A stretch of DNA of 55,045 bases, counting the filler, from Stramenopiles sp. TOSAG23-2 (taxonomy: Eukaryota): assembly GCA_900128395.1 (NCBI GenBank). It is 3 parts of 3 records of this genome, joined end to end, with 100 filler letters (N's around TTAATTAATTAA, not from the genome) between each part and the next. Parts side by side here need not be neighbours in the genome. Positions count along the whole stretch, not along the records: positions 36,784 to 55,045 come from LT649612.1; 2 more parts are not named here. The stretch is one strand, 5' to 3'. How positions within the stretch are numbered: position 1 is the stretch's first letter; every line of letters begins with the position of its first letter. The notes beneath the pieces were generated by a model, which was given only the letters and a program-made list of their open reading frames with translations, ran no database searches and was not told the DNA's origin. The translations under genes and the position numbers were made by a program. Below, piece by piece: positions 18,294 to 41,971 of this stretch.

Positions 18294-18393
18294 NNNNNNN
18301 NNNNNNNNNNNNNNNNNNNNNNNNNNNNNNNNNNNNNTTAATTAATTAANNNNNNNNNNNNNNNNNNNNNNNNNNNNNNNNNNNNNNNNNNNN
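18294..18393. other. Artificial contig linker (N44-TTAATTAATTAA-N44)
   Basis: N runs around a six-frame stop linker. Confidence 0.97.
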
Positions 18394-19188: not shown

Positions 19189-22100
19189 ATGTTCTTACTG
19201 AAAATAATCCTATTGTTAGTTGCAATTCCAGCAGTAGCAGGTACAGCAACTGCAGCTACAAAAACAATTACGGAGTCTGGTGACTCCACACGCACTATGA
19301 GTGTTACTTTAAATGTCGATACAGCTATGGAAGCCGACGATATTATTACTATTAGTGGTCTGACTGGATCAGATACCTCCGATAGTGATTATTTAACTTT
19401 AGGTGGTGCTGCATCTGATAAATTTTCTACTCCAGATTATGGCTCGGGTTATGCGGTATGGACCCAAGATTCTGGTACACTAGTCTTAACAGCAAATACA
19501 AATGTTAACGCAAACACGAATATAACATTTACATTTGATCTTGACGTATATACTCCTCAAGTGGCAACATCACCTACAATTGCAACCACTTTTGCAGGAG
19601 GAAATCTTGCAGAAACGCCTCTTGTAGGTAGTAACATTCTCGCTAAAGGTCCAACAATTGAAGAGGGGACAATTCAAGAGACTGGTTCAACGACCCGAAA
19701 AATATCTATAAGTTTACAAATAGACTATGCTATGGAAGCCAACGATATTATTACTATTAGTGGTCTGACTGGATCAGATACCCCCGATGGCGATTTGACT
19801 TTAGGTGGTTCTGAATCGGGCAATGATGACTCTGCCAAATTTACGGCAAACGGAATTGATGGTAAAGGTACATGGACAAAAGCTACCGGTACGCTTGTAT
19901 TGACTCTAAACACAGGTGTTACTGCAAGCACCATGATTTCGTTTTCAGTCGATGTCGCTCAACCAAATGTTATTCAAGCAGCGGTATCATCACCTACCAT
20001 TTCTGGAACGTTTGGATCACCGGCAGTTGTTCTTTCACCAACTGCTCTTACTTTGTCTTCCACTACATATGGTATTTTGTATCAACCAGCTTGGGATTGT
20101 GAAGGGGGTGTGACGTTTACATCCGACAATCACCCCCTTGGCGACAGTTTTGCAGGAATAGGTCCGCAAACTGTGGGAGTATATCAAATAAGCGTAGGGT
20201 CATGCCAGCTGCAAAACCAAGTAGTAGTTATGGACGATTTATCAATAACAGGAACAAATACCAGTTTAACTGTTATAACCGCAGCCGAAGGCAAGAGGCA
20301 TTTTTATAATTCAGTAGACGCGACGTTAACATTAACAAAATTAAAACTCGTAGGTGGAAGCGTTTTCGATACAATGGATAACACGGACGACAATTTAGTT
20401 GATATTGGAATTGGAGGCTCAATATTGATGTTTGGTGGTGCAAGTGCAGTTCTAACTATCGATAATTGTATCTTTGAAAATAATCAGGCGCTTGCTGGAG
20501 GTGCTATATTTTATTATGCTACAAATACTGATGGAACGTGTAGCGATAGTAGTTCTACATCGAAAGAACTTTGTTTAGGACAAGGCTCTTGTTCAGATGA
20601 TAATATTGCGGAGTATGGAATATGTTTGCAGGCACAGGGTGAAACTTGGACTTCTACTTACACATGGAGTCTCACAAATGGTCAAAGCCATTGTGGGTCC
20701 GTAACGATTACAAACTCAAAATTTAAATCGAATAAAAACACGTTTATTCCACAACCGGAGATGTCCAATTACGCATTAATTCCATCAATTAGCCCCAGTC
20801 TGGTAGTTGATTTTGGTACTGGTGGTGCGATGTATATTGGAAGTGCTCATGATTTAGCTAGCAGCGGAGGTGGAGCAAATGCCAATACAATTAGCGTTAC
20901 CAATTCATTATTTGAATCAAATGCTGCAACGATTTCAGGGGGCGCAGCCTATATAGTACAAGCACAATTATTATCAGGGAAGAGCGTAACTTTTACAGAT
21001 ACTGTCTTCAGCAATAATATGCAGAGTCCTCAGGGGGCGCAGCCTATATAGTACAAGCACAATTATTATCAGGGAAGAGCGTAACTTTTACAGATACTGT
21101 CTTCAGCAATAATATGCAGAGTCCACCGGAAGAAGTGGATCCGGCTTTGTCTTCGACAGCTTTTAACGTGGCTGGTGGTGCGATTGCATTTGTCGCGATG
21201 CGGTATGGGGGTATTAATGATCATTGTGAATTTAATTTAATAACGTGTAAATTTATTGGCAATATAGCCCAGAGTAATAAAGGTCATAATTTTGTATTTA
21301 CTGAAATAAAACCTACAGGAGCTTCCGATCCATGGATGCCCATGATAAATATGACAAGTACAAATACATTATATGCAGACACAGTAGTTATGTCAAATAC
21401 CTTTTATACAATAGGTGCAAGTGTAAGTATGGTTGATGTTTCAAATTCGGCCCTTGGGGTTTATTTAAGTGAAGTTCAATCCACAATGCCGGAAATGGAT
21501 AGTTTTCAATTTACTAGTGATGGCACTACAACGTGCAACCAATTCCCAACAATCGGGACTGGTGTAATAACAATCAGTAGTATCAACTCTGGTGGTGTTC
21601 TTTCTACTTCACCAGGCACCGGTTTTATTTACTCGTACGCAAAAAATGATATAATAAGCATTACTGGTTGTTCACAAAGTACAAATAATAACGGGAACTT
21701 TAGAATATCAAGCATATCGGGAGATGATATTACCTTGGTACATAAAAATACAAATGCAGCTATTGAAACTGGAACAGATGAAACCGATTGCACAATTGCA
21801 AGAGCAATCGCAATAGATATATCTACATGCATGCAAACAATTAGTGACAAAATTTGTTGTGAAAAAACTCCAGAAATATCACTTATATCACCTGGTACAG
21901 GGACAACATTAGGCAGCACATCAGTATTATTTACAGGTGTGAATTTTGATGAATTTGACCCCCCAGTTGCCGTTGGCGTCATAACAATTAGTAGTATAAC
22001 TACAGGGGGTATTTATACAACCGAATCAGGTTCAGGAACTATTGCATCTTTTGCTGTAGATGATGTAGTTATTATTGCAAGTTGTTCCCATATAGACAGT

Positions 22101-25100
22101 TTGATCAATAATGGTGCATTTAAAATTGCTGAAATTAGTGGGGATGCTATTACATTAGTAAATAAAGATACCTTCGCAGCGATAGTAACTGGGACAGATG
22201 CAACCGGTTGTACTATTTCAAACCCAAACATTGTTATTTCAACAAACGATAATATATGGTCTTCTCCTACTCGGGTAAATACAGGAGAGCTAGCTGCTGT
22301 TTCGCCGATCGGCGTTGGTGGCAATATCCCTATTAAAGTAGCAATCAATGGCGTAACTTCTAAATATGAATTGGCATTTTTTTCATATACATTGCCAAAC
22401 ATCACATTGATTCATACCATACCGAAATTAAATGGTGGAAGTTCAAGTCGTTTACATGTGATAGCTGATGAAATTGGTGATAATACGACATTGGATGAAA
22501 TAAGTATTATAATTGCAGCAGAAGGTGCAAGTGCATGTGGTGGGACAGCATGTACAAATTTGAATCTTGTTGCAGTTACAGCTATTGCTAAGTTCAAGTC
22601 GTTTACATGTGATAGCTGATGAAATTGGTGATAATACGACATTGGATGAAATAAGTATTATAATTGCAGCAGAAGGTGCAAGTGCATGTGGTGGGACAGC
22701 ATGTACAAATTTGAATCTTGTTGCAGTTACAGCTATTGCTGATGATGTTATTATTATTGTGGGTGTAACAACAACTGGTGTGTATACATTAGCTGGTGAT
22801 ACTTCATCATTAGCAGTTGGCAATATAGTGACTATTTCTGGTTGTGGCGATAGTGGTAGTTTAATAAACAATGGAAAATTTAAAATTTCTGCCACTAATA
22901 TTGATGTTTCTAATGGTTATTCAATAACATTAGTAAACAAAGATACAGATGCAAGTATTGCGACTGGCGATGTACCTGACGGGTGTAAAATATCAAGAGA
23001 GCCATACAATAAAATTGATTGTTTATATACCACCGCTGGAGCAAAGTCTGCATGTATGGATGTTGTTCTTTCTGCTGGTAATCAAAAAAGCCCACCAAGA
23101 ACATTCTGTTACGGTAATTCAGATGAAGGTGCAATAATTATTACCGAAAATGTTCCAGATGTTGTTGAAGGCACATCAAATACCATTTATAAATTAAATT
23201 TAAAATATGAAGTTGCCAGAACAGAAAGCGTTGTTATAGCAATAACTGTTACAAATACAGTTGGTAGTTTACCATGTACCGTTTCACCAACATCAGTTAC
23301 ATTTGATACAACTGATACAAACGATGTACCGATAACAATAACTACAACTGGCAACGATATTGATGAAGGTACTAATGAAATTATAAATACATGCACGATA
23401 ACACACACAATTTCAACCACAGATCCCGTTTACAGTTTAGTTTCTACTAAATCGATTGATATAAATGTCAGAAATGATGATAATGCTGACGTATATTTGT
23501 GGTACGATCAAACGTACCCTGTCAAATTTTTAGCATTTTACGCAGAAGAAAGTAAAACCGTAATCTATGATATTAAATTAGAAACTGAACCTACTGCAGA
23601 TGTTACAGTTACAATAGACATCGTTTTAGATCCTTTAAATGAAATTAAAATTGCAAATGATGTAATCACAATTACTGGCGTAACAACTAATGGGGTATAT
23701 ACTACTGCCGATGGAACCCCACTTGGGACTGGTATTGGTAGTTATGGAGTTAACGATATTGTAACGATAGCAAGCTGCAGTGTTAATACTGAAAACAATG
23801 GATTTTTTAAAATTTCAGATATTTCAGGAAACGATATTACATTGATTAATAGGTTTACAAATGCTGCGATAGTGACTGGGATTGATATTACAGATTGTAC
23901 AATATCAAAATCAAGAATGCATCCTTCTCCAACTCCAAATATCGCGATAACACCAATTTCAAGTGATTTAACATTTACCTCGAGCAATTGGGGTGTTTAT
24001 CAAACTGTAAATTTAACATCTATCAACGATAATATTGACCATGACTTAGCGCGCTTCACCATTTTGCACACTATAAGTTCTTCCGATACAGTATTCGTGA
24101 ATAAAATTAATGCAAAGAAATCGATTTTAGCCGTAATAGACGTTGATAATGATGATACTACAGGCATAGTGTGGTCGTATCTAAACGATGATTTAACATT
24201 AATTGAAAATGGAAATTCAAAACGAATACAAGTTTCGGGTTTAAATTCTCAACCAGTTTCTGATGTTACTATTACAGTGGAAATACCTTCGGATTGGATA
24301 AGTATTATAAAAGTAACACCACATCAAATAACAATAAGCAAACACGAATGGAACGATGTAGAAAACATATTTACATTTCATGCATTATTAGGTGCCCCTA
24401 TGAGCACTTCGGTGGGCATCAAATTGAAAAGTTCTAGTACAGATATGAAATATGCTTGGGGAACCAACATCGCAACAATTGCCGCATACGTTTCAACTGC
24501 TGCTGATGAGCCGACAACCAACGTAACAAACCATCCACCAAAACATTCTGCGTGGACAACTGCAACGTTTGAATTTTACGCACCAGAGTCAAATGTCGTC
24601 AAATTTGTCTATAGATTGGATGGTGGGGAGGTACAAGAAATTCCCTGCCCGGTTAGCACATATTGTAACAAAGTAAGTTTCGAAACTTTGGCATTAGATT
24701 TTGGAATGCATCGTTTAGAAGTCCAAGCCGCATCAAACGAACGTCTAGATACTACCGCGGTGTCTATAGATTGGACAATTTTACATTGTAACGGCGAGCC
24801 GCAACGGTATGCTAAAATTGAACCAAATGGTGCAATCCAATGCTTCGATTGTCCTCAATCCGTCGGCGTCAATTGTGCAGAAATGGACGCGGAATGGGAG
24901 CATATTTATGCATATCCAAATTGGTGGACGTCTGGCAGCTCTGACGATAATTACTTTAAATGTCCGTTGGAAGGTTCCTGTTTAGGAGGTTTATATGAAA
25001 AGGATGTGAATGGGACTATTACGGTACAAAAATCTAGGTGTGCCGAAGGTTACGATAATTCCGCACCAGTATGTGCTGTTTGTGCCGATGAATATGTCTT

Positions 25101-27996
25101 TCAACAAAATAGATGTGTTTCCTGCCCAGGCTATGTGCCTGGAAAAGCTACTGCGCCGACGCGCTCCATGATGGTTGCAGGTTTTGTAACCATGTGTTTT
25201 TCTCTTGTTTTTATGTACTTCTTTTTCACTATACAAACGTTGTCACTCGCTGAAGAGGAAGATTTAAGGGTTAAGTTAAGTGAATTAGACTTAGACGAGG
25301 TGTTTAAAGAGAAAAAAGAACTAACACATGATGTTTTCAGCGAGTTTTTAGATGGAGAGGGTTTGACTGAAACGGAGATATTATATATATTTCATGCCGT
25401 TGATAAAGACGAAAGTGGGTTGCTCAATCGTGCAGAATTAGAAGCATATGTAACCAACAATGGTAAAATCGATATGGAAGAATTACAAGCAAAAAACGAA
25501 GAACACCACAACAAAATAGAAGATACTCAAAAAGTAATGAGGCAAATTGGTGGAACGTTGATGAAATTCAAAATTTTGCTGGGCTATTCTCAGTGTATGA
25601 CTTACCTTCCTGTCGTTTTTGATTTACCTTTTCCTCCAACAATGACTTATTTGATGATCCTTCTTGAAATGACGTCATTGGATATTTATGTATTGTTTGG
25701 CGAAGCTAGCTGTTACATGCAAACCAATTTTAAACAAAAATTTGTTTTTCACATGCTCTTGTTTCCAGTAATTGCGCTTATGGTTTGCTTTGTATTAGGA
25801 ATTATTTATTGGCGGACAAAGGGTTGCTGCAAACGCCCACGTTTTACGTTGGAAAGCGTCAAGACACGCCTGTATACATTTGCAACATTGACATGTTTTG
25901 GTCTATATACCGGCATATCCACGAGAATCTTCCGATTGTTTAAATGCCGGAACATTGATGATGAGTACTATTTAACGTCTGATTACAGCATGAAATGCTA
26001 CACAGATGAATGGTGGAGTTACGCGGGCGTTGCTATTTTTTGCATGTTTGTGTATGTAGTTGGGATCCCACTAGCCCAATTTATCGTACTTCTGCAAAAT
26101 CGTCATCATTTGCATGAAGAATCAGCGCTCGATCATCAGTCGCATCGTTTAGCCAAGAAAAAATTTGGTTCCATATATGAAAATTATATTGAAGATTGCT
26201 ATTATTTTGATCTATTGGATTTGCTTCGACGTTTGATTTTGACTGGTGGGCTTATTTTAGTGGGAGAACATAGTATTGTTCAAGTTTTATTGGGAATTTT
26301 AACTAGCCTTTTTTGGTTATTAATTGTAGCAATAAAATTTCCTTACAGAGCATATTGGGATAACATACTATCACTTGCTTTGTCGTTTGCTTTGGTATTA
26401 TCTTTGATATGCGGTTTTGCACTAGAACTATTTGATGCCACACGCCTTGCAAATAATGAAAGTGTAGATGGAACGAAATACGAAGAGATTATTTTTGATT
26501 GGATATTAACTTCAATGACCCTTGTTTGTATTTTTGCTGGAATAATTGCATGTATACTTACCATACCTTGTATTCAAGATTGTCTTCGAAAATATATATC
26601 GAAGGAATTAGATAGTCGCAGAGAAATGAAAGAATGGGTGGAGAGACAGAAGGTTTTAGTGAAATGGTTGCACATAGACGATGTAAAAAACACCCTGAAG
26701 GTAGCAACGGCAACGCTAGAAGAAAAGGCAGAAATTGAAAGACTAAAGCATGGTCAGAAGCTTAAGAAGAGAAGGAAATCTCTCTCGGCATTATCGGCTA
26801 ACAATGTAAGTGTATTGCCCATAGTAGATACAGAGAAAAGAATGTTTAGCACTGGTAGTCTAGTTCATATTAAAAAAATGAAAACTATTGCTGGTCACCA
26901 TGCGGAAGTTGGTAATATAAAGAGAAAACGTGTAGAAGGAACGAAACATTTAAAACGTAAACATGAGGAAGTACGGCAACGAAGTGAAGCACAGCGAAGA
27001 AATCTAGAAAAACGAATTCAGCGAAGAAAATCTCAGAATAAAGCAAACAGTAATAAGAAATCTCAACCAGAATCAACAAAGAAGAAAGAAAAAGTAGCGG
27101 AAGTACGGGAATCATTAAAAGAATTTAAACATGTAAGAGCGAAGGCTATTCACGCAAAAAAAGTCGGTGATATGGTATTAGCAATGACGCTTTTAAAAAA
27201 ATGTAAAGAAATAAAAACAATTATTATTAAAAAAAATGATGAAGCAGAGAAATGCGATAACAAAGAAACTGGTATGGAGAAAAATAAATTGATAAAGAAC
27301 AAGCCAAACTCGAGTAAAATTAATAAAACAACAATAATACAAAAGGAAGAGACATCAGGAGTAGTAGCACTGAAAAAAAAGCCTAAAAGGAAAAAGAAGA
27401 AAATATATATATCAAAAAATAAAATGACATTGGCAAAAACAAAGGATCATATTGCTGGAATGTATGAAAAGAAAGTCAAAAGTGATGTAGCGAATGATAA
27501 AAAAGGTAATGAACGCGATACATTAACCCATTTTTGTGATGATTTTTTTTCTCACATGTTTGGTATGCCAGCATTGGCTGGCAAAAAAGTATACGAATTC
27601 AAGCAAGGTATTAAACGATATGCAAAGGACGATACTGGTGTAAGATGGTTTGGTACATTAATTGGATGGTTGCCTGAAAATGTACATAAAGGTATAATTA
27701 CACCATTTAAAACAATTGCAATTGATGTATATTTGTTTCTATTGCAAAATGTTTTCCCAGTAGATTCCATCGAAGAATTATTAGATGATGATCCATGTTT
27801 AATAAATTTTGTAAAACTTCAAAATGCACTTGATATGTTATTTAAAAACCAATTAAATGATGAACGTATAATTACATTGAAAAAAGAAATATCGACTATT
27901 AATCATGAAAATGTCGAATTTAATTTTGCATTTGATAAAATCATGCGAGTGTGGTATAGTTTTGGTACTCCACCAACATGTCCAAGATCCAAATAA
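19189..27996 (+). CDS. Giant (~2853 aa after collapsing two duplications) surface/receptor-like protein: signal peptide, Ig-like repeats, Pmp-type beta-helix, IPT/TIG-like, Cys-rich region, multi-TM domain, EF-hand, basic tail
   Basis: Three ORFs (19189, 21114, 22567) become one frame when the 95-bp and 151-bp exact duplications are removed; GGAI/FxxN motifs; EF-hand DKDESGLLNRAELE; multi-TM block with YFDLLDLLRRLILTG. Confidence 0.85.
20935..21124. repeat. Exact 95-bp tandem duplication causing a frameshift (probable artefact)
   Basis: 20935-21029 is identical to 21030-21124. Confidence 0.92.
22439..22740. repeat. Exact 151-bp tandem duplication causing a frameshift (probable artefact)
   Basis: 22439-22589 is identical to 22590-22740. 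Confidence 0.92.
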
Positions 27997-36683: not shown

Positions 36684-36783
36684 NNNNNNNNNNNNNNNNN
36701 NNNNNNNNNNNNNNNNNNNNNNNNNNNTTAATTAATTAANNNNNNNNNNNNNNNNNNNNNNNNNNNNNNNNNNNNNNNNNNNN
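36684..36783. other. Artificial contig linker (N44-TTAATTAATTAA-N44)
   Basis: N runs around a six-frame stop linker. Confidence 0.97.
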
Positions 36784-38258
36784 AGAATATAGATCTAGAT
36801 ACTGAGCATAGTAGATATATATCCGTGTAATATCTTCTATCTTCTATCCACTGTATAAGTTGAAACCCACCCCCACTAGCAGCACACCAGAACACAACAT
36901 GGGAATATCATTAGACACTATATTTATAGCGTAACCTACTTACTGGCGGCCTCTATTCTCAGTTCATCTTTTGTTACGTATCTGGTGCTCTGGTATTATT
37001 TTGTCGAAAAAATAAATCAGTTGCAAAATAAAAAGGCCTACAAGCACCTATTTATATTAGTACTACTCATAATACCATCTCACACAGGTAAAGGATACCA
37101 GGTAGCTCTAGCTAGCGGGCTAGCTATCTAGTGGAAATACCGTGGCAATTTAATATAATACGGTTATTTCGTTAAAAAAGATGCATATATATGATGTACA
37201 TATATATGGGACGGACATAAAACATATACAATACAGAGAAACAGACAACATTTTATTAGTTACAAAAGATATCCTTTTATAAAATAGAAATTACATATTA
37301 TCTAAACATATTAAAAATACAATTGTAAACGGGTGTCAAATATGAAAAAAGCAATGAAACGTTGTTGTAGAAACCAAGCTACACAATTAATTTTCTTAGT
37401 TATTTTCATCCCTGCCATGTTATTGCCGATTGAACAGAAATTTAAAAAATATTTTTTAATACAAAAATATTTATAATCAAAACAATTGTAGAGGAAGGGA
37501 GGAAATATTTTTAATATCTCTTAACAATTTTTAAAAAAATTTAAATATCATTTTTTATGTGTTTAATTTTTTACGTACGAAGTATTAAAAAATATTTTTT
37601 ATTTATAAAAGCTACGTAAAAAGAAAAATTTACCCCTGAACTTCGTTAAAAAAATACGCGGAATCGATTAAAAAAGGGTGTGTTTTTATATTTTTACATT
37701 TTATATAAAATATATTAAAATATAAAAATATACGTATGGCTCAAATCGGCAAAGATTTCCCCAGGGCCTGTGTAGGCGTAGCTAAAATATGCTAATTTTA
37801 TGTAATGATATATACCTTCTAAATTTTAGCGCATGGACTCTTCCTCTTCCATTCTTGGTCAATTTCAGGTCCTCCAATGCTTTGTTATAATCTCCGAACC
37901 TAGAAGGATCTAGGAGCTGACCTTCGACCCCGGAAATCGACTTATCTCACTTTATGAGATTTGACCATTTCCAGATCGAAAAATTGAAAAATGAATTGAA
38001 AGGACCGTCTCTGGCCATCAAAAAAAAATAAAAAATTAATAATTGATAAACTTTTCGTTAATAATGTGTATCGTTTCGATTTCTCGACCAATATAATATC
38101 TAAATATATGTGTTAGAAGCTAGTAAAGTGTCATTGCTCATACAAAAATATGTTATTATAATAGAACTGTCATCGTTTTTATATAGATGTTTATAGTTTA
38201 ATATATTATAACAAACAAATATTTTTTGATTATTGTAGATTTTGGTTGAAAATAGACT

Positions 38259-41200
38259 ATGGCAGACAGCTGGACTTGCAAAGAATGTGGTAGAGGTGAT
38301 AATAAGCACCATATTCGCCTCAACTTTTATTCTTGTAATTATTGTCACCCAAGGAAGCCAAAAGGAAAGAGAAGAAGAGTTAAAAAATATGTTAGAGCTA
38401 ATAAACAACAAAAACAACATCCATCAGATATGCGTTCTCCAATACCATCATCATCATCAAGTAATAATAATAAGAATAATAATAATAGTAATAATATAAA
38501 GATTAAGTCCAAATCCAGACGAAATACACGTACCAAAATTAGTGATGCAAACAAAGCATATTGCAAGATGCAGATTGAACATTATACTTTATTGTGTGGG
38601 ATGTTAAATCAATTGGACTTTACATTAGAGATAGACCATATCAGACAGATCAAAAAGATATATGTATATAAATATTTTGAGCAGATGATTATGTATTATC
38701 GCTCTGAATCAAAGAATAGGGCAACAACAAAGGTCCATGAGATTGCAAGTAAAGTTGCAAAGGATCCATCTATAGGTGGTTTGCCTTACAAACGCGGTAA
38801 AAAGCGTCATGGGAAAGTGTCTGGAAGACAAGTAAGAAATTGGGCAAAACAATTTATCCAATCTGGAGATTTCAAAAAGAATGAAGTTGGTCTATGGGAA
38901 AGGTATAATGTGATAACACATGAGGAAGATGTTAAACAAAAAGTATTGGAATACCTGAACGAACATATTGGTGTTGAAAAGACGTTCAAAATATTTAAAA
39001 ATGGTAAAAAATCCAAAGGATTTCGACGGATGAAAAAATTTAATATGTCACAATTTAAAAGGAAAGTAAATGCAATTCTTAAAGAATCAAAGATTTTGAA
39101 AAATAAAGGAAAGTCAAAAAAACAAATAAAACAACCAACATCAACCGCACCAATAGCACCAATAGCACCAATAGCACCAATAGCACCAATAGCTCAACTA
39201 GCAACAACTACTACTACCACCACCACCACCACCACCACCACCACAACAACAACAACTACTACTACCACAGCAACAACACAAAATGCAATACCAAGTAATG
39301 TAGTAGAAAATGATGCTAATAATAATAATAATAATAACAATAACACCAATGAAAATGATAATGCAACTGAGACTGTAGAGCCTGAATATATGACTGTTTC
39401 TGATAAAGTATTATATCAATGGCTTAATCTCCTTGGTTTCACATATGGTTCTGTAAAAAGTCGTGGGTATGTTGATCGTCATAATGACGACGATGTTGTT
39501 AAATATCGTCAAAATAAATTTTTGCCGAAATATTATGAACAAGAACACCGCATGTATCACTGGATATCAATAAAAAATGACAATGGTGAACCAACTACAT
39601 TTCATATAGATACTTATACCCGTTGGTTTGAGGCACAATTTGGCCAAGAATTTGATTTAACTAAACTTGGTCCATATCGTGGGCAATTACATCTAGATTT
39701 TGTTCAAGATGGTGGAGCAGTAGACCATTTAGATCATCATATGCAGCCATTAATACCTGTCTTTCAAGATGAATCTACATATGGTTCAAATGAAACACCA
39801 AAATATGCTTGGTCTAAAATTGGTGGTGATGTTACAATGTCAAAAGATGATGTTGGCCAATCTGTCATGATAAGTGGTTATTGTACTGAATTTGATGGTA
39901 TTATTACTATGACAAGTGAACAACTTGCAGAAGTAAATTACAACCGTCAAAATGCAGGTAAACAAGATCTGAAGTATAAAGAATTAGCAACTGCATTTAA
40001 GTATGGTAAAACACATGAAGGGTATTGGAATGCAGAATTAATGCTTGAAGATATAGATGATGCCATAGATGTATGTGAAGTTGTATATAGTGGTAATCAG
40101 ATGTTTTATTTTTTTGATCATAGTACTTGCCATGGTGCATATGCAGATGATGCATTACGAGCAGAGCTTATGTCAGCTGGTCCAGGTGGAAAACAACCAT
40201 TAATGCATCCTACAACATGGAAAGATGAAGAAGGAAACATAAATGAACAATCAATGGTATTTGAACCAGGAGATATTCCAGTTGTCCCATTTACTGATGG
40301 AATAGATGCTCATATTGGTGAAGCTAAAGGCTTACGGCAAGTGTTATTTGAACATGGTTTGATCACAGAGGAAGTAGCACAAATTAAGCGATTTGTAAAG
40401 AAGAAAGATGGAAATGGTGGTGTGAATGCTGATGGTAAGAAAAAGAAAAAAAAGAAAAAAAAGGTAAAATATATTCCACCAGAAGTAATAACATGGTTAG
40501 ATGAAGATGGGAAATTACAACCTGGAACAAAAAGGAACGGTAATTGTGGATGTTCTGCCAGTCTTCCATTGCCAAATATAGATTTACATGATGTTGGAGA
40601 AGAAGAAAAAGCGAAGTTTTATAGAATCTATGGATGTGGAGAAGATTTGATGCCAAATAAAAGGATTGAAGAAGAATGTGTAGATCCTGATAATCCAACG
40701 AGGATACATCCTAATTGCACTGCTTCCTTACATAAATGCTGTAGTTATTATGCATGTGCATATTGCCATAATCAATATCATAAAAAGTGCTTGGGTCTAG
40801 ATCCATATAAAGGCTTCAGTAAAGATGCTGAATTTTTCAACGAGAAAGATTTTATATGTCCAGAATGTATTATTTGTGCAAAGGAAGATTTAGCATATAT
40901 ATCACCATCTGATACTGATGATGAAAATGAAAATGAGGAAGAGGAGAAGGTGAGTGATGATAATGATGGCAACAATGATGCTAATGCTAATATTAATGGA
41001 AGTAGTAGCAATAGTAGTAATAATAACAGCAATAGCAATAATAGTATTAATAGTGATAATAATAATATTATTGCTATGGATGTAGATGAAGAAGAAGAAG
41101 AAGATTATTCACTTAAAGGGTTACGTAAATTAATGGCAGAACAAGAGGATTTTATGAACCAAAAATCGCAGGTAGAAGAACTAATTGTAAGACGGAATCA

Positions 41201-41549
41201 TCTTTGTTTGTTTCTTCCAAAATTCCATTGTGAATTAAACATGATTGAGTTGATATGGGGAAGGAGTAAAAGATTTGTACGTGACAGAACAAACGGCCAG
41301 TTTGATCGTCTACTCTATGGCGATAAGAACTATGAGAAAGGTCTAATTTTTTTATCATATGAAGTTGGTGAAGGTAAAAATATGACCAAATCATTAGTTT
41401 TTAAATATGCTCGTAAATGCCGCGAGTTAATGAATATTTATCATAAAAATATTGAGTCGGCGAATCTGCATGCGGTACGTGCTTCATATAAGAGCCATAG
41501 ACGCGCATCAGAACGTCTTCAAGCAGTTTTTGATGCACAACGTGCATAA
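38259..41549 (+). CDS. DDE transposase (1096 aa) with N-terminal Zn ribbon and inserted PHD-like finger
   Basis: FQDES (D504), FFDHSTCH (D620), FLPKFHCELNMIELIWGRSKR (E997); WTCKEC..CNYC at the N-terminus; CAYCHNQYHKKC...FICPEC insert. Confidence 0.88.
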   Translation: MADSWTCKECGRGDNKHHIRLNFYSCNYCHPRKPKGKRRRVKKYVRANKQQKQHPSDMRSPIPSSSSSNNNKNNNNSNNIKIKSKSRRNTRTKISDANKAYCKMQIEHYTLLCGMLNQLDFTLEIDHIRQIKKIYVYKYFEQMIMYYRSESKNRATTKVHEIASKVAKDPSIGGLPYKRGKKRHGKVSGRQVRNWAKQFIQSGDFKKNEVGLWERYNVITHEEDVKQKVLEYLNEHIGVEKTFKIFKNGKKSKGFRRMKKFNMSQFKRKVNAILKESKILKNKGKSKKQIKQPTSTAPIAPIAPIAPIAPIAQLATTTTTTTTTTTTTTTTTTTTTTATTQNAIPSNVVENDANNNNNNNNNTNENDNATETVEPEYMTVSDKVLYQWLNLLGFTYGSVKSRGYVDRHNDDDVVKYRQNKFLPKYYEQEHRMYHWISIKNDNGEPTTFHIDTYTRWFEAQFGQEFDLTKLGPYRGQLHLDFVQDGGAVDHLDHHMQPLIPVFQDESTYGSNETPKYAWSKIGGDVTMSKDDVGQSVMISGYCTEFDGIITMTSEQLAEVNYNRQNAGKQDLKYKELATAFKYGKTHEGYWNAELMLEDIDDAIDVCEVVYSGNQMFYFFDHSTCHGAYADDALRAELMSAGPGGKQPLMHPTTWKDEEGNINEQSMVFEPGDIPVVPFTDGIDAHIGEAKGLRQVLFEHGLITEEVAQIKRFVKKKDGNGGVNADGKKKKKKKKKVKYIPPEVITWLDEDGKLQPGTKRNGNCGCSASLPLPNIDLHDVGEEEKAKFYRIYGCGEDLMPNKRIEEECVDPDNPTRIHPNCTASLHKCCSYYACAYCHNQYHKKCLGLDPYKGFSKDAEFFNEKDFICPECIICAKEDLAYISPSDTDDENENEEEEKVSDDNDGNNDANANINGSSSNSSNNNSNSNNSINSDNNNIIAMDVDEEEEEDYSLKGLRKLMAEQEDFMNQKSQVEELIVRRNHLCLFLPKFHCELNMIELIWGRSKRFVRDRTNGQFDRLLYGDKNYEKGLIFLSYEVGEGKNMTKSLVFKYARKCRELMNIYHKNIESANLHAVRASYKSHRRASERLQAVFDAQRA
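39146..39345 (+). repeat. Coding low-complexity repeats: (GCACCAATA)5, poly-Thr and poly-Asn trinucleotide tracts
   Basis: APIAPIAPIAPIAPI, a long T run and an N run in the transposase. Confidence 0.85.
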
Positions 41550-41971
41550 TTACGCTTTGTGCATTTTGTACACATGAAATAATTGATGATATGTCCAGAA
41601 AATGTGAAAATGTAAGAAAAAAATCAAAAAATTAATGATATTTACATGTAAAATTATAAAAGTTAAAATATTTTAATAAAAAGTTTGTATGCACGTCACA
41701 CTAATTATTCTACACATGCCTTTAAATTTTTATACGCTAATATTAAGAATTGGCTGAGTTATCGTCGTTTGCATGGGGGAAATCTTTGCCGATTTGAGCC
41801 ATAACAAAAATAAAAAATATAATAAAAAAATTATTTACGCAATGATATGTAACACACACAATATTCTCTCTCTCATATTTTTCTATGATAGATGATATTT
41901 ATATTTTACGAACGTATATATTACCAGTATATCATTATCAAAAATTAATATATATATTTTTACAAAAAAAG

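What the first reader, a model, noticed from the sequence alone, without database searches (positions are those of the whole stretch)
37737..41801. Complete, apparently young ITm-like transposon with an unusually large transposase
Seen: perfect 26-bp TIRs, TA on both flanks, one uninterrupted 1096-aa ORF, inserted 170 bp past the dynein stop codon. The putative triad D504/D620/E997 gives a spacing of about DD376E. Knowledge: TA duplication and the P...ELN.IE..W..K motif typify IS630-Tc1-mariner, where the spacing is usually ~34-41 and the enzyme ~350 aa. Inference: an autonomous member of a divergent, possibly unnamed ITm lineage.
Basis: partly seen in the sequence, partly recalled or inferred. 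Interest (0 to 1): 0.8.

Follow-up and report, generated by a model that had tools for sequence, protein, structure and literature searches.

The report
Sagan-type transposon with PHD-like insert
This is an intact, recently mobile jumping gene of a named but little-studied Tc1/mariner branch (Sagan), unusual because a zinc-finger module resembling histone readers sits inside its cutting enzyme's catalytic domain.

Summary
In detail: perfect 26-bp TIRs, TA on both flanks, one 1096-aa ORF, 170 bp from the dynein stop, triad D504/D620/E997 (DD376E). Mobility is supported: another sample has the same locus without the element, 15 family ends in this genome all follow TA, and a ~1.1-kb non-autonomous family shares the TIRs. 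The modelled core matches Mos1/Metnase/Sleeping Beauty (Z 16-18). The lineage is probably not unnamed. It belongs to a large long-spacer ITm family (DD98-253E in 89 homologues) that fits the one-paragraph definition of Sagan and occurs in the rust genome where Sagan was named; no labelled Sagan sequence was available, so the assignment is inferred. Sailor is excluded on motifs and target site. New here: about 200 extra residues in the D-E spacer, including a PHD-like finger (moderate evidence; the H3K4me3-cage Trp is missing), seen in 1 of 227 proteins held. Relatives carry Agenet/Tudor-like, Ulp1 or USP modules instead. A chromatin-tethering role is a hypothesis. My look-ups of earlier scan notes found no report of this family.

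The parts
37735..37736 (.). Left TA target-site duplication
   Evidence: 15 of 15 true family ends in G000 follow TA while the base before varies; the empty allele retains a TA.
37737..37762 (+). Left 26-bp terminal inverted repeat
   Evidence: Exact reverse complement of the right TIR.
37763..38258 (+). Left non-coding subterminal region; its first ~480 bp are shared with the non-autonomous family
   Evidence: 81-90% identical to left ends of non-autonomous copies. Promoter role inferred, not tested.
38259..41549 (+). Transposase ORF, 1096 aa (P0001)
   Evidence: Pfam DDE_3 E 3.4e-6, just under cut-off. Core model matches Mos1 Z 18.0, rmsd 2.5, 189 aligned.
38277..38345 (+). N-terminal CxxC-x15-CxxC, possible zinc finger (aa 7-29)
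   Evidence: Seen in the sequence; no significant Pfam hit; absent from the nearest relative P0002. Unproven.
39132..39383 (+). Low-complexity Thr/Asn/Pro-Ile-Ala stretch (aa 292-375) inside the presumed DNA-binding region
   Evidence: HTH character of the flanks is inferred by eye; homologue P0055 has a weak HTH_33 hit there (E 0.0014).
39768..39770 (+). Catalytic D504 (FQDES)
   Evidence: Column D in 91 of 91 homologues, selected on this motif; on a core strand of the model.
40116..40118 (+). Catalytic D620 (FFDHS)
   Evidence: D in 90 of 91 homologues, not a selection motif; follows a core strand.
40359..41147 (+). Expanded spacer segment, aa 701-963 (263 aa): poly-Lys tract, Cys-rich region, acidic/Asn low-complexity tail
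   Evidence: Same segment is 19-107 aa in 90 homologues and 252 aa in P0002; pLDDT mostly under 50; no homologue found.
40707..40868 (+). PHD-like cross-brace zinc finger, aa ~817-870 (C833-x2-C836-x4-H841-x2-C844 ... C867-x2-C870)
   Evidence: Pfam PHD E 0.0024, below cut-off; all 8 PDB sequence hits are PHD-bearing proteins, best BPTF E 0.0023; spacing in 0 of 20000 spacer shuffles and 4 of 20000 Cys-rich-region shuffles. First ligand pair uncertain.
41247..41249 (+). Catalytic E997 (PKFHCELNMIE)
   Evidence: E in 91 of 91 homologues, selected on this motif; on a confident helix after the insert; region matches DDE_3 positions 93-141.
41550..41775 (+). Right non-coding subterminal region
   Evidence: About 73% identical over the last 150 bp of the element to right ends of non-autonomous copies.
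41776..41801 (-). Right 26-bp terminal inverted repeat
41802..41803 (.). Right TA target-site duplication
   Evidence: the empty allele resumes at 41802.

Best explanation
An intact, recently mobile, autonomous cut-and-paste DNA transposon of the Sagan-type (long-spacer) branch of IS630-Tc1-mariner. By analogy with Mos1 and Tc1 (inferred, not shown), the transposase binds the 26-bp TIRs through its N-terminal region, brings D504, D620 and E997 together in one RNase H-like site, excises the element and inserts it at TA, which is duplicated. The 376 residues between D620 and E997 loop out: about 110 are the family's conserved insertion, and the rest is a lineage-specific expansion at one variable site, carrying a PHD-like zinc finger. 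The enzyme probably also moves the ~1.1-kb non-autonomous copies that share its TIRs. My best guess for the finger is a tether to nucleosomes or DNA that biases or helps integration, but not an H3K4me3 reader (about 0.3; untested). The confidence given is for the identity and mobility, not for the finger's role.
For: Ends, TA and ORF. Empty orthologous site in a 7041-bp contig of run X21. 15 of 15 true ends in G000 follow TA. Five two-ended non-coding copies of 1092-2400 bp share the TIRs. Fold: Mos1 Z 18.0, Metnase 17.9, Sleeping Beauty 16.1, next integrases 11.4. Family: Coprinopsis, Laccaria and other named fungal homologues; spacing 98-253 in 89 homologues. Sagan definition and the same motifs in a P. 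striiformis peptide. A family member with TA plus 28-bp TIR at L081. PHD-like evidence. 98-100% identical ORF pieces in three further runs, one an RNA library.
Against: No labelled Sagan sequence could be compared. The empty allele has one extra T beside the TA and a 4-nt indel 11 bp upstream, so it is not a base-exact pre-insertion site. Only one full ORF copy in G000. The PHD hits are below curated cut-offs, the first ligand pair is irregular, BPTF W32 aligns to Q839, and the insert folded poorly (pLDDT 36). The non-autonomous copies are only ~85% and ~73% identical at their ends, so they may stem from a sister element. E698 is also conserved (89 of 91) and I could not measure model distances. 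Transposition activity is not shown.
Confidence: 0.8

Rival explanations
1. Same element, but the PHD-like finger is an inert passenger (captured coding DNA tolerated in a flexible loop) or binds transposon DNA like the piggyBac cysteine-rich domain (recalled), with no chromatin-reading role.
For: The nearest relative P0002 has an unrelated insert of similar length without the Cys pattern; the H3K4me3-cage Trp is absent; the insert is flanked by low-complexity tracts; 1 of 227 held proteins has the pattern.
Against: The core ligand spacing is intact and the frame is open; other members carry Agenet/Tudor-like modules, which suggests repeated recruitment of reader-like domains.
Confidence: 0.5
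2. The long-spacer family is not Sagan but a separate, unnamed ITm lineage.
For: No labelled Sagan sequence seen. The Sagan text gives no motif or spacing. The peptide file searched was cut.
Against: All stated Sagan traits are met, and the only long-spacer ITm motif found in the held part of the P. striiformis proteome is this family's (PKFHCEL 3, Sailor-type 0).
Confidence: 0.13
3. The expanded spacer is an in-frame, optionally spliced intron (40435-41085, 651 nt), so the working enzyme is about DD159E.
For: A G|GTAAG donor-like site at 40435 and an in-frame AG at 41085; that hexamer is absent from the 12.5-kb dynein ORF; removal would give a family-typical spacing.
Against: The stretch is stop-free in frame (0 of 20000 shuffles; 10 and 47 stops in the other frames) and encodes the PHD-like spacing; P0002 has an equally long coding insert at the same site.
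Confidence: 0.08
4. An extreme member of Sailor (DD82E)/Submariner.
For: Shared long D-E spacer and HCELN.IE motif; Sailor occurs in stramenopiles and fungi.
Against: Sailor has YLDET / VIIMDNA, DD78-111E, mostly TATA sites and 323-676 aa enzymes; its supplement holds PKFH 0, PKYH 0, PPYH 165 times; only 3 of 15 ends here follow TATA.
Confidence: 0.03

Closest known systems
Sagan elements (TcMar-Sagan); Cantu et al. 2011, PMC3164196 (section 8 read in full; supplements searched)
   Same: [quoted passage not shown] Peptide PST130_6129_1 of that genome shows the same motif chain (about DD201E by my hand count).
   Different: DD376E against 98-253 in 89 homologues; PHD-like finger in the spacer; 1096 aa. 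The paper gives no motif, spacing or accessory domain for Sagan, and its peptides are not labelled Sagan.
Fungal long-spacer transposases such as Coprinopsis CC1G_11674 (P0003) and Laccaria LACBIDRAFT_300092 (P0004)
   Same: Same core motifs; 45% and 37% identity over 197 core columns; BLASTP E 3e-33 and 2e-19 on either side of the insert.
   Different: DD189E and DD132E; their variable site is 76 and 31 aa; 57 of 92 family proteins have a CC pair before the QxDF motif, which P0001 and P0002 lack.
P0002 (1014 aa, metagenomic, unnamed)
   Same: Sister in the core tree (local support 0.98), 54% core identity, also DD376E.
   Different: Its 252-aa insert is unrelated in sequence, has no Cys pattern and no significant Pfam or PDB hit; a SAP-like stretch is my reading by eye only.
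DD82E/Sailor (Shi et al. 2021, PMC8533490; parts 2-4 of 6 read, supplement searched) and Submariner (PMC4495683; passages)
   Same: ITm with lengthened D-E spacer; HCELN-type motif before the E.
   Different: Different motifs at both aspartates and before the E, DD78-111E, TATA preference, shorter enzymes.
Mos1, Metnase/SETMAR and Sleeping Beauty catalytic domains
   Same: Closest solved folds, Z 16-18, rmsd 2.5-4.2.
   Different: 10-15% identity; spacer about 34 (recalled); no large insertion domain.
Transposon-chromatin reader fusions (bioRxiv 10.1101/2021.11.30.470311, passages; PMC12477816, passages)
   Same: PHD, Chromo and Tudor domains fused to transposon proteins are known and proposed to guide insertion or evade silencing.
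   Different: The passages read name no PHD inside an ITm catalytic core and no Sagan element; their supplementary tables were not seen.

Membership tests
IS630-Tc1-mariner (ITm) | TA target-site duplication | tested here: met
   15 of 15 true ends in G000 follow TA with a pattern that did not include TA; the empty allele keeps a TA, plus one extra T.
IS630-Tc1-mariner (ITm) | Terminal inverted repeats around one transposase ORF | tested here: met
IS630-Tc1-mariner (ITm) | RNase H-like DDE/D core of Tc1/mariner type | tested here: met
   Z 16-18 to Mos1, Metnase, Sleeping Beauty, above integrases at 11.4 or less; DDE_3 match.
IS630-Tc1-mariner (ITm) | Cut-and-paste activity | not testable with these tools
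   Only indirect: insertion polymorphism.
Sagan | TA duplication and short TIRs | tested here: met
   definition.
Sagan | Long insertion between D and E of the triad | tested here: met
   DD376E; family range 98-253.
Sagan | Family present in the genome where Sagan was described | tested here: met
   PKFHCEL 3 times, with the full motif chain in PST130_6129_1; file cut; not labelled Sagan.
Sagan | Grouping with labelled Repbase Sagan transposases | not testable with these tools
   No labelled sequence in the supplements searched; Repbase and Dfam not available.
Sagan | Reported host range (fungi, stramenopiles, alveolates) | tested here: inconclusive
   Named homologues are basidiomycetes; the host here is a eukaryote whose near-identical sequences sit in marine runs; its taxon was not tested.
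DD82E/Sailor | Motifs YLDET, VIIMDNA, PPYH-type before the E | tested here: not met
   FQDES, FFFDHS, PKFHCELN here; PKFH 0 and PKYH 0 against PPYH 165 in the held Sailor supplement.
DD82E/Sailor | Spacing DD78-111E and mostly TATA target | tested here: not met
   DD376E; 3 of 15 ends follow TATA. The family's short end (98-111) overlaps Sailor's range in number only.
PHD finger | C4-H-C3 ligand spacing | tested here: inconclusive
   Six ligands in canonical spacing; first pair unclear (H817/C820 or C827/C828); Pfam 18.3 bits against cut-off 24.
PHD finger | Aromatic cage for H3K4me3 (BPTF Y10, Y17, Y23, W32; roles recalled) | tested here: not met
   Only Y23 is matched (Y830); W32 aligns to Q839.
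PHD finger | Cross-brace fold and zinc binding | tested here: inconclusive
   Single-sequence model unusable, mean pLDDT 35.7.

The most novel reading that the evidence does not exclude
[quoted passage not shown] This element would be a live, testable example and the longest ITm D-E spacing that I found.
Probability: 0.25. Interest if true: 0.7.

Novelty: new variant of a known kind. Interest (0 to 1): 0.45.

Why it matters
Sagan is named but barely described: in the library searched it has one paragraph and a few annotation-table mentions. Yet the family is large (711 clusters at E up to 1e-10). An intact, polymorphic element with matching non-autonomous copies gives a first assay system. [quoted passage not shown] If the finger reads chromatin, it is a natural case of a reader built inside a Tc1/mariner-type catalytic domain.

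Tried and rejected
Third catalytic residue near D620: acidic residues 636-688 are D/E in at most 17 of 91 homologues; D631 (72 of 91) and E698 (89 of 91) are conserved, but the Mos1 match and the DDE_3 motif point to E997. HvSm: DD34E, rejected. Homologues of the insert: none among 2768 candidates of 30-601 aa (longer proteins not searched for this region), none in the ESM Atlas, only itself in G000. Whole-protein Atlas hits scored 0.78-0.81, leads only. Single-sequence fold of the insert failed. Foldseek gave no hit at E up to 0.001, top rows Mos1. No relative in viral contigs or, by protein patterns, in metagenome contigs. 14 GTDB loci hold relatives, all in MAGs, 9 of them on contigs under 4 kb; one MAG has long CA microsatellites nearby, so I read these as probable eukaryotic contamination, not tested. 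No second or empty copy of the left flank in G000. In one search bin 40608-40831, most of the finger, had next to no cover in the 4 runs laid, which shows nothing either way; RNA-library contigs over 39376-40384 do not prove transcription. The TA before all 18 metagenome ends is by construction, since the pattern held TA. SAP-like readings for P0002, P0097 and P0196 were not confirmed. The identical spacing of 376 in P0001 and P0002 looks coincidental (263 vs 252 aa at the variable site). Literature search on DD12x-DD15x signatures returned only unrelated papers. A review that may describe Sagan was not held. Earlier scan notes: nothing by sequence or by these words.
Full report
Observation. 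The element runs from 37737 to 41801 (4065 bp). Its 26-bp ends are exact reverse complements and each is flanked by TA. It holds one stop-free ORF, 38259-41549, of 1096 aa, and ends 170 bp from the stop of a convergent 4177-aa dynein ORF. It lies whole on contig C1406 of G000 with no N inside.

Mobility. The first 18 TIR bases hit G000 17 times at up to 2 mismatches, against 1 hit for the reversed control. These reduce to 16 distinct contexts; 15 continue as left (6) or right (9) element ends and all 15 follow TA, while the base before TA varies and only 3 follow TATA. The 16th (L038) diverges right after the motif and I treat it as chance. Laying 4 of the 22 listed runs on the region gave an empty site: a 7041-bp contig of run X21 follows the left flank to 37725 and resumes at 41802, with 14 letters between that repeat the last flank bases. 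Read literally, that allele has a TA with one extra T before it and a 4-nt indel 11 bp upstream. The intergenic flank differs by several small indels between the two alleles, so this is an empty orthologous site but not a base-exact one; an excision footprint is possible. Contigs from two marine DNA runs and one RNA library cover parts of the ORF at 98-100% identity, including both edges of the insert (40386-40609, 40848-41240); these show presence, not expression. Only one full ORF copy was found in G000, which is fragmented (9146 contigs). One G000 copy (C634, 1408 bp) and four metagenome copies (1092, 1092, 1109, 2400 bp) have both TIRs, no stop-free frame over 87 codons, and 89-99% identity among shared parts. 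They match the autonomous element at about 85% over the left 500 bp and 73% over the right 150 bp, so they form a related non-autonomous family that this enzyme or a sister could move.

The enzyme. A search of 1.84 billion representatives gave 2954 hits at E up to 0.001 and 711 at 1e-10; I examined the best 150, plus 7. Of these 158 proteins including P0001, 92 had both outer motifs and were aligned; 91 have D, D and E in the columns of D504, D620 and E997. The outer two were selected for; D620 (90 of 91 homologues) was not. Spacing is 98-253 in 89 homologues (median 142.5 among 62 motif-called proteins) and 376 in P0001 and P0002. An AlphaFold2 model of aa 377-1096 has a confident core and a low-confidence insert; D504 and D620 sit on or just after core strands and E997 on a helix after the insert. 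It matches Mos1 (Z 18.0, rmsd 2.5, 189 aligned), Metnase (17.9) and Sleeping Beauty (16.1), above integrases (11.4 or less), with the aligned range running past the insert. No conserved acidic residue lies about 35 after D620; E698 is conserved (89 of 91) and remains a formal alternative because I had no model coordinates.

Which family. Sailor has other motifs at both aspartates, DD78-111E, mostly TATA sites and enzymes of 323-676 aa (PMC8533490, parts 2-4 of 6 read); its supplement, cut in storage, has PKFH 0, PKYH 0 and PPYH 165 times. Cantu et al. 2011 (PMC3164196, section 8 read) define Sagan by TA duplication, short TIRs and a long insertion between D and E, in fungi, stramenopiles and Perkinsus. 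The held part of that paper's peptide file has PKFHCEL 3 times and no Sailor-type motif; PST130_6129_1 shows this family's whole motif chain at about DD201E by my hand count. Named homologues of P0001 are basidiomycete proteins, and a DD111E member at L081 has TA plus a 28-bp TIR. I therefore file the element as Sagan-type. This is an inference: no labelled Sagan sequence was found in two papers' supplements and Repbase was not available. Whole-word searches found Sagan with Tc1 terms in 2 papers and TcMar-Sagan in 6 (listing; passages of PMC13465017 read).

What is special. The excess length sits at one variable site: 263 aa here, 252 aa in P0002, 19-107 aa in the other 90. P0001 and P0002 are sisters (local support 0.98; deeper nodes 0.27-0.89) but their inserts are unrelated. 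Within P0001's insert, aa 817-870 resemble a PHD finger: Pfam PHD E 0.0024, below cut-off; all 8 PDB sequence hits up to E 10 are PHD-bearing proteins, best BPTF E 0.0023; the six-ligand spacing arose in 0 of 20000 shuffles of the spacer and 4 of 20000 of the Cys-rich part, and occurs in 1 of 227 proteins held (the pattern was chosen after seeing the sequence). No PHD hit appeared among 80 relatives at E up to 0.003 or the 18 relatives. The first ligand pair is irregular and BPTF W32 aligns to Q839, so an H3K4me3 cage is unlikely (cage residues recalled). The insert alone did not fold and has no detected homologue. Other members carry other modules: Tudor above cut-off at the C-terminus of P0021 and P0207, Ulp1 in P0105 and a USP domain in P0057, and Agenet-like stretches inside the spacer of L080 and L082 (E 0.0034 and 8.4e-5, below cut-off). 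A donor-like site at 40435 allows an in-frame 651-nt intron, but the stretch is stop-free (0 of 20000 shuffles), so I take it as coding.

Mechanism. Shown: ends, TA, triad conservation, fold of the core, presence/absence polymorphism. Inferred from Tc1/mariner biology: TIR binding, paired-end cleavage, insertion at TA, trans-mobilisation of the short copies. Hypothesis: the finger tethers the transpososome to chromatin or DNA (about 0.3); an inert or DNA-binding role is at least as likely. Fusions of PHD, Chromo and Tudor domains with transposon proteins are known in general (bioRxiv 10.1101/2021.11.30.470311, passages; PMC12477816, passages). I found no report of a PHD inside an ITm catalytic core or of DD376E (listings) or the passages read; the preprint's supplementary table of 823 fusions and subscription journals were not seen and could hold one.

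Verdict. A real, intact, recently mobile element of a known but neglected ITm branch, with an extreme spacer and a probable PHD-like insert. New variant of a known kind; interest 0.45.

Noticed in passing
G000:C634:17441-18848 (L055); L061, L066, L070, L074: Non-autonomous family of about 1.09 kb sharing the TIRs; the C634 copy has three internal tandem duplications and L070 has a 1.3-kb insert. Two TIR variants coexist.
   Followed up: yes
L008 (G000:C3822:849-989), L060, L063, L065: A right end 97% identical to this element over 141 bp in L008; similar ends with the same flank in three metagenome contigs, so probably one shared older insertion.
   Followed up: partly
L081:2908-5541: 2.6-kb element of the same family (DD111E, TA plus 28-bp TIR starting CAGTG) on a long contig of a bacterial MAG; another contig of that MAG (L084) has CA microsatellites, so probably host DNA.
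   Followed up: partly
L080, L082, P0125: DD252-253E members with an Agenet/Tudor-like insert at a second site of the spacer.
   Followed up: partly
P0105, P0049, P0057, P0021, P0207: Family members with C-terminal Ulp1 (P0049 weak), USP or Tudor domains.
   Followed up: partly
L051-L054 (G000): Four other DDE_3 transposase loci in this genome; L051 is a short-spacer (about DD34E) ITm.
   Followed up: partly
window 41544-41803, run X3 record 20: A contig 99.6% identical to the right end seems to continue for 19 letters unlike the window flank, perhaps a second insertion site; too short to rely on.
   Followed up: no
window 18294-18393 and 36684-36783: Scaffold gaps: two N runs around a short palindromic linker; the window joins several contigs.
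   Followed up: no
window 19189-27996: Three adjacent same-strand ORFs (620, 501, 1646 aa), probably one large surface protein with repeated beta-rich domains, a Cys-rich part and several membrane helices; read by eye only.
   Followed up: no
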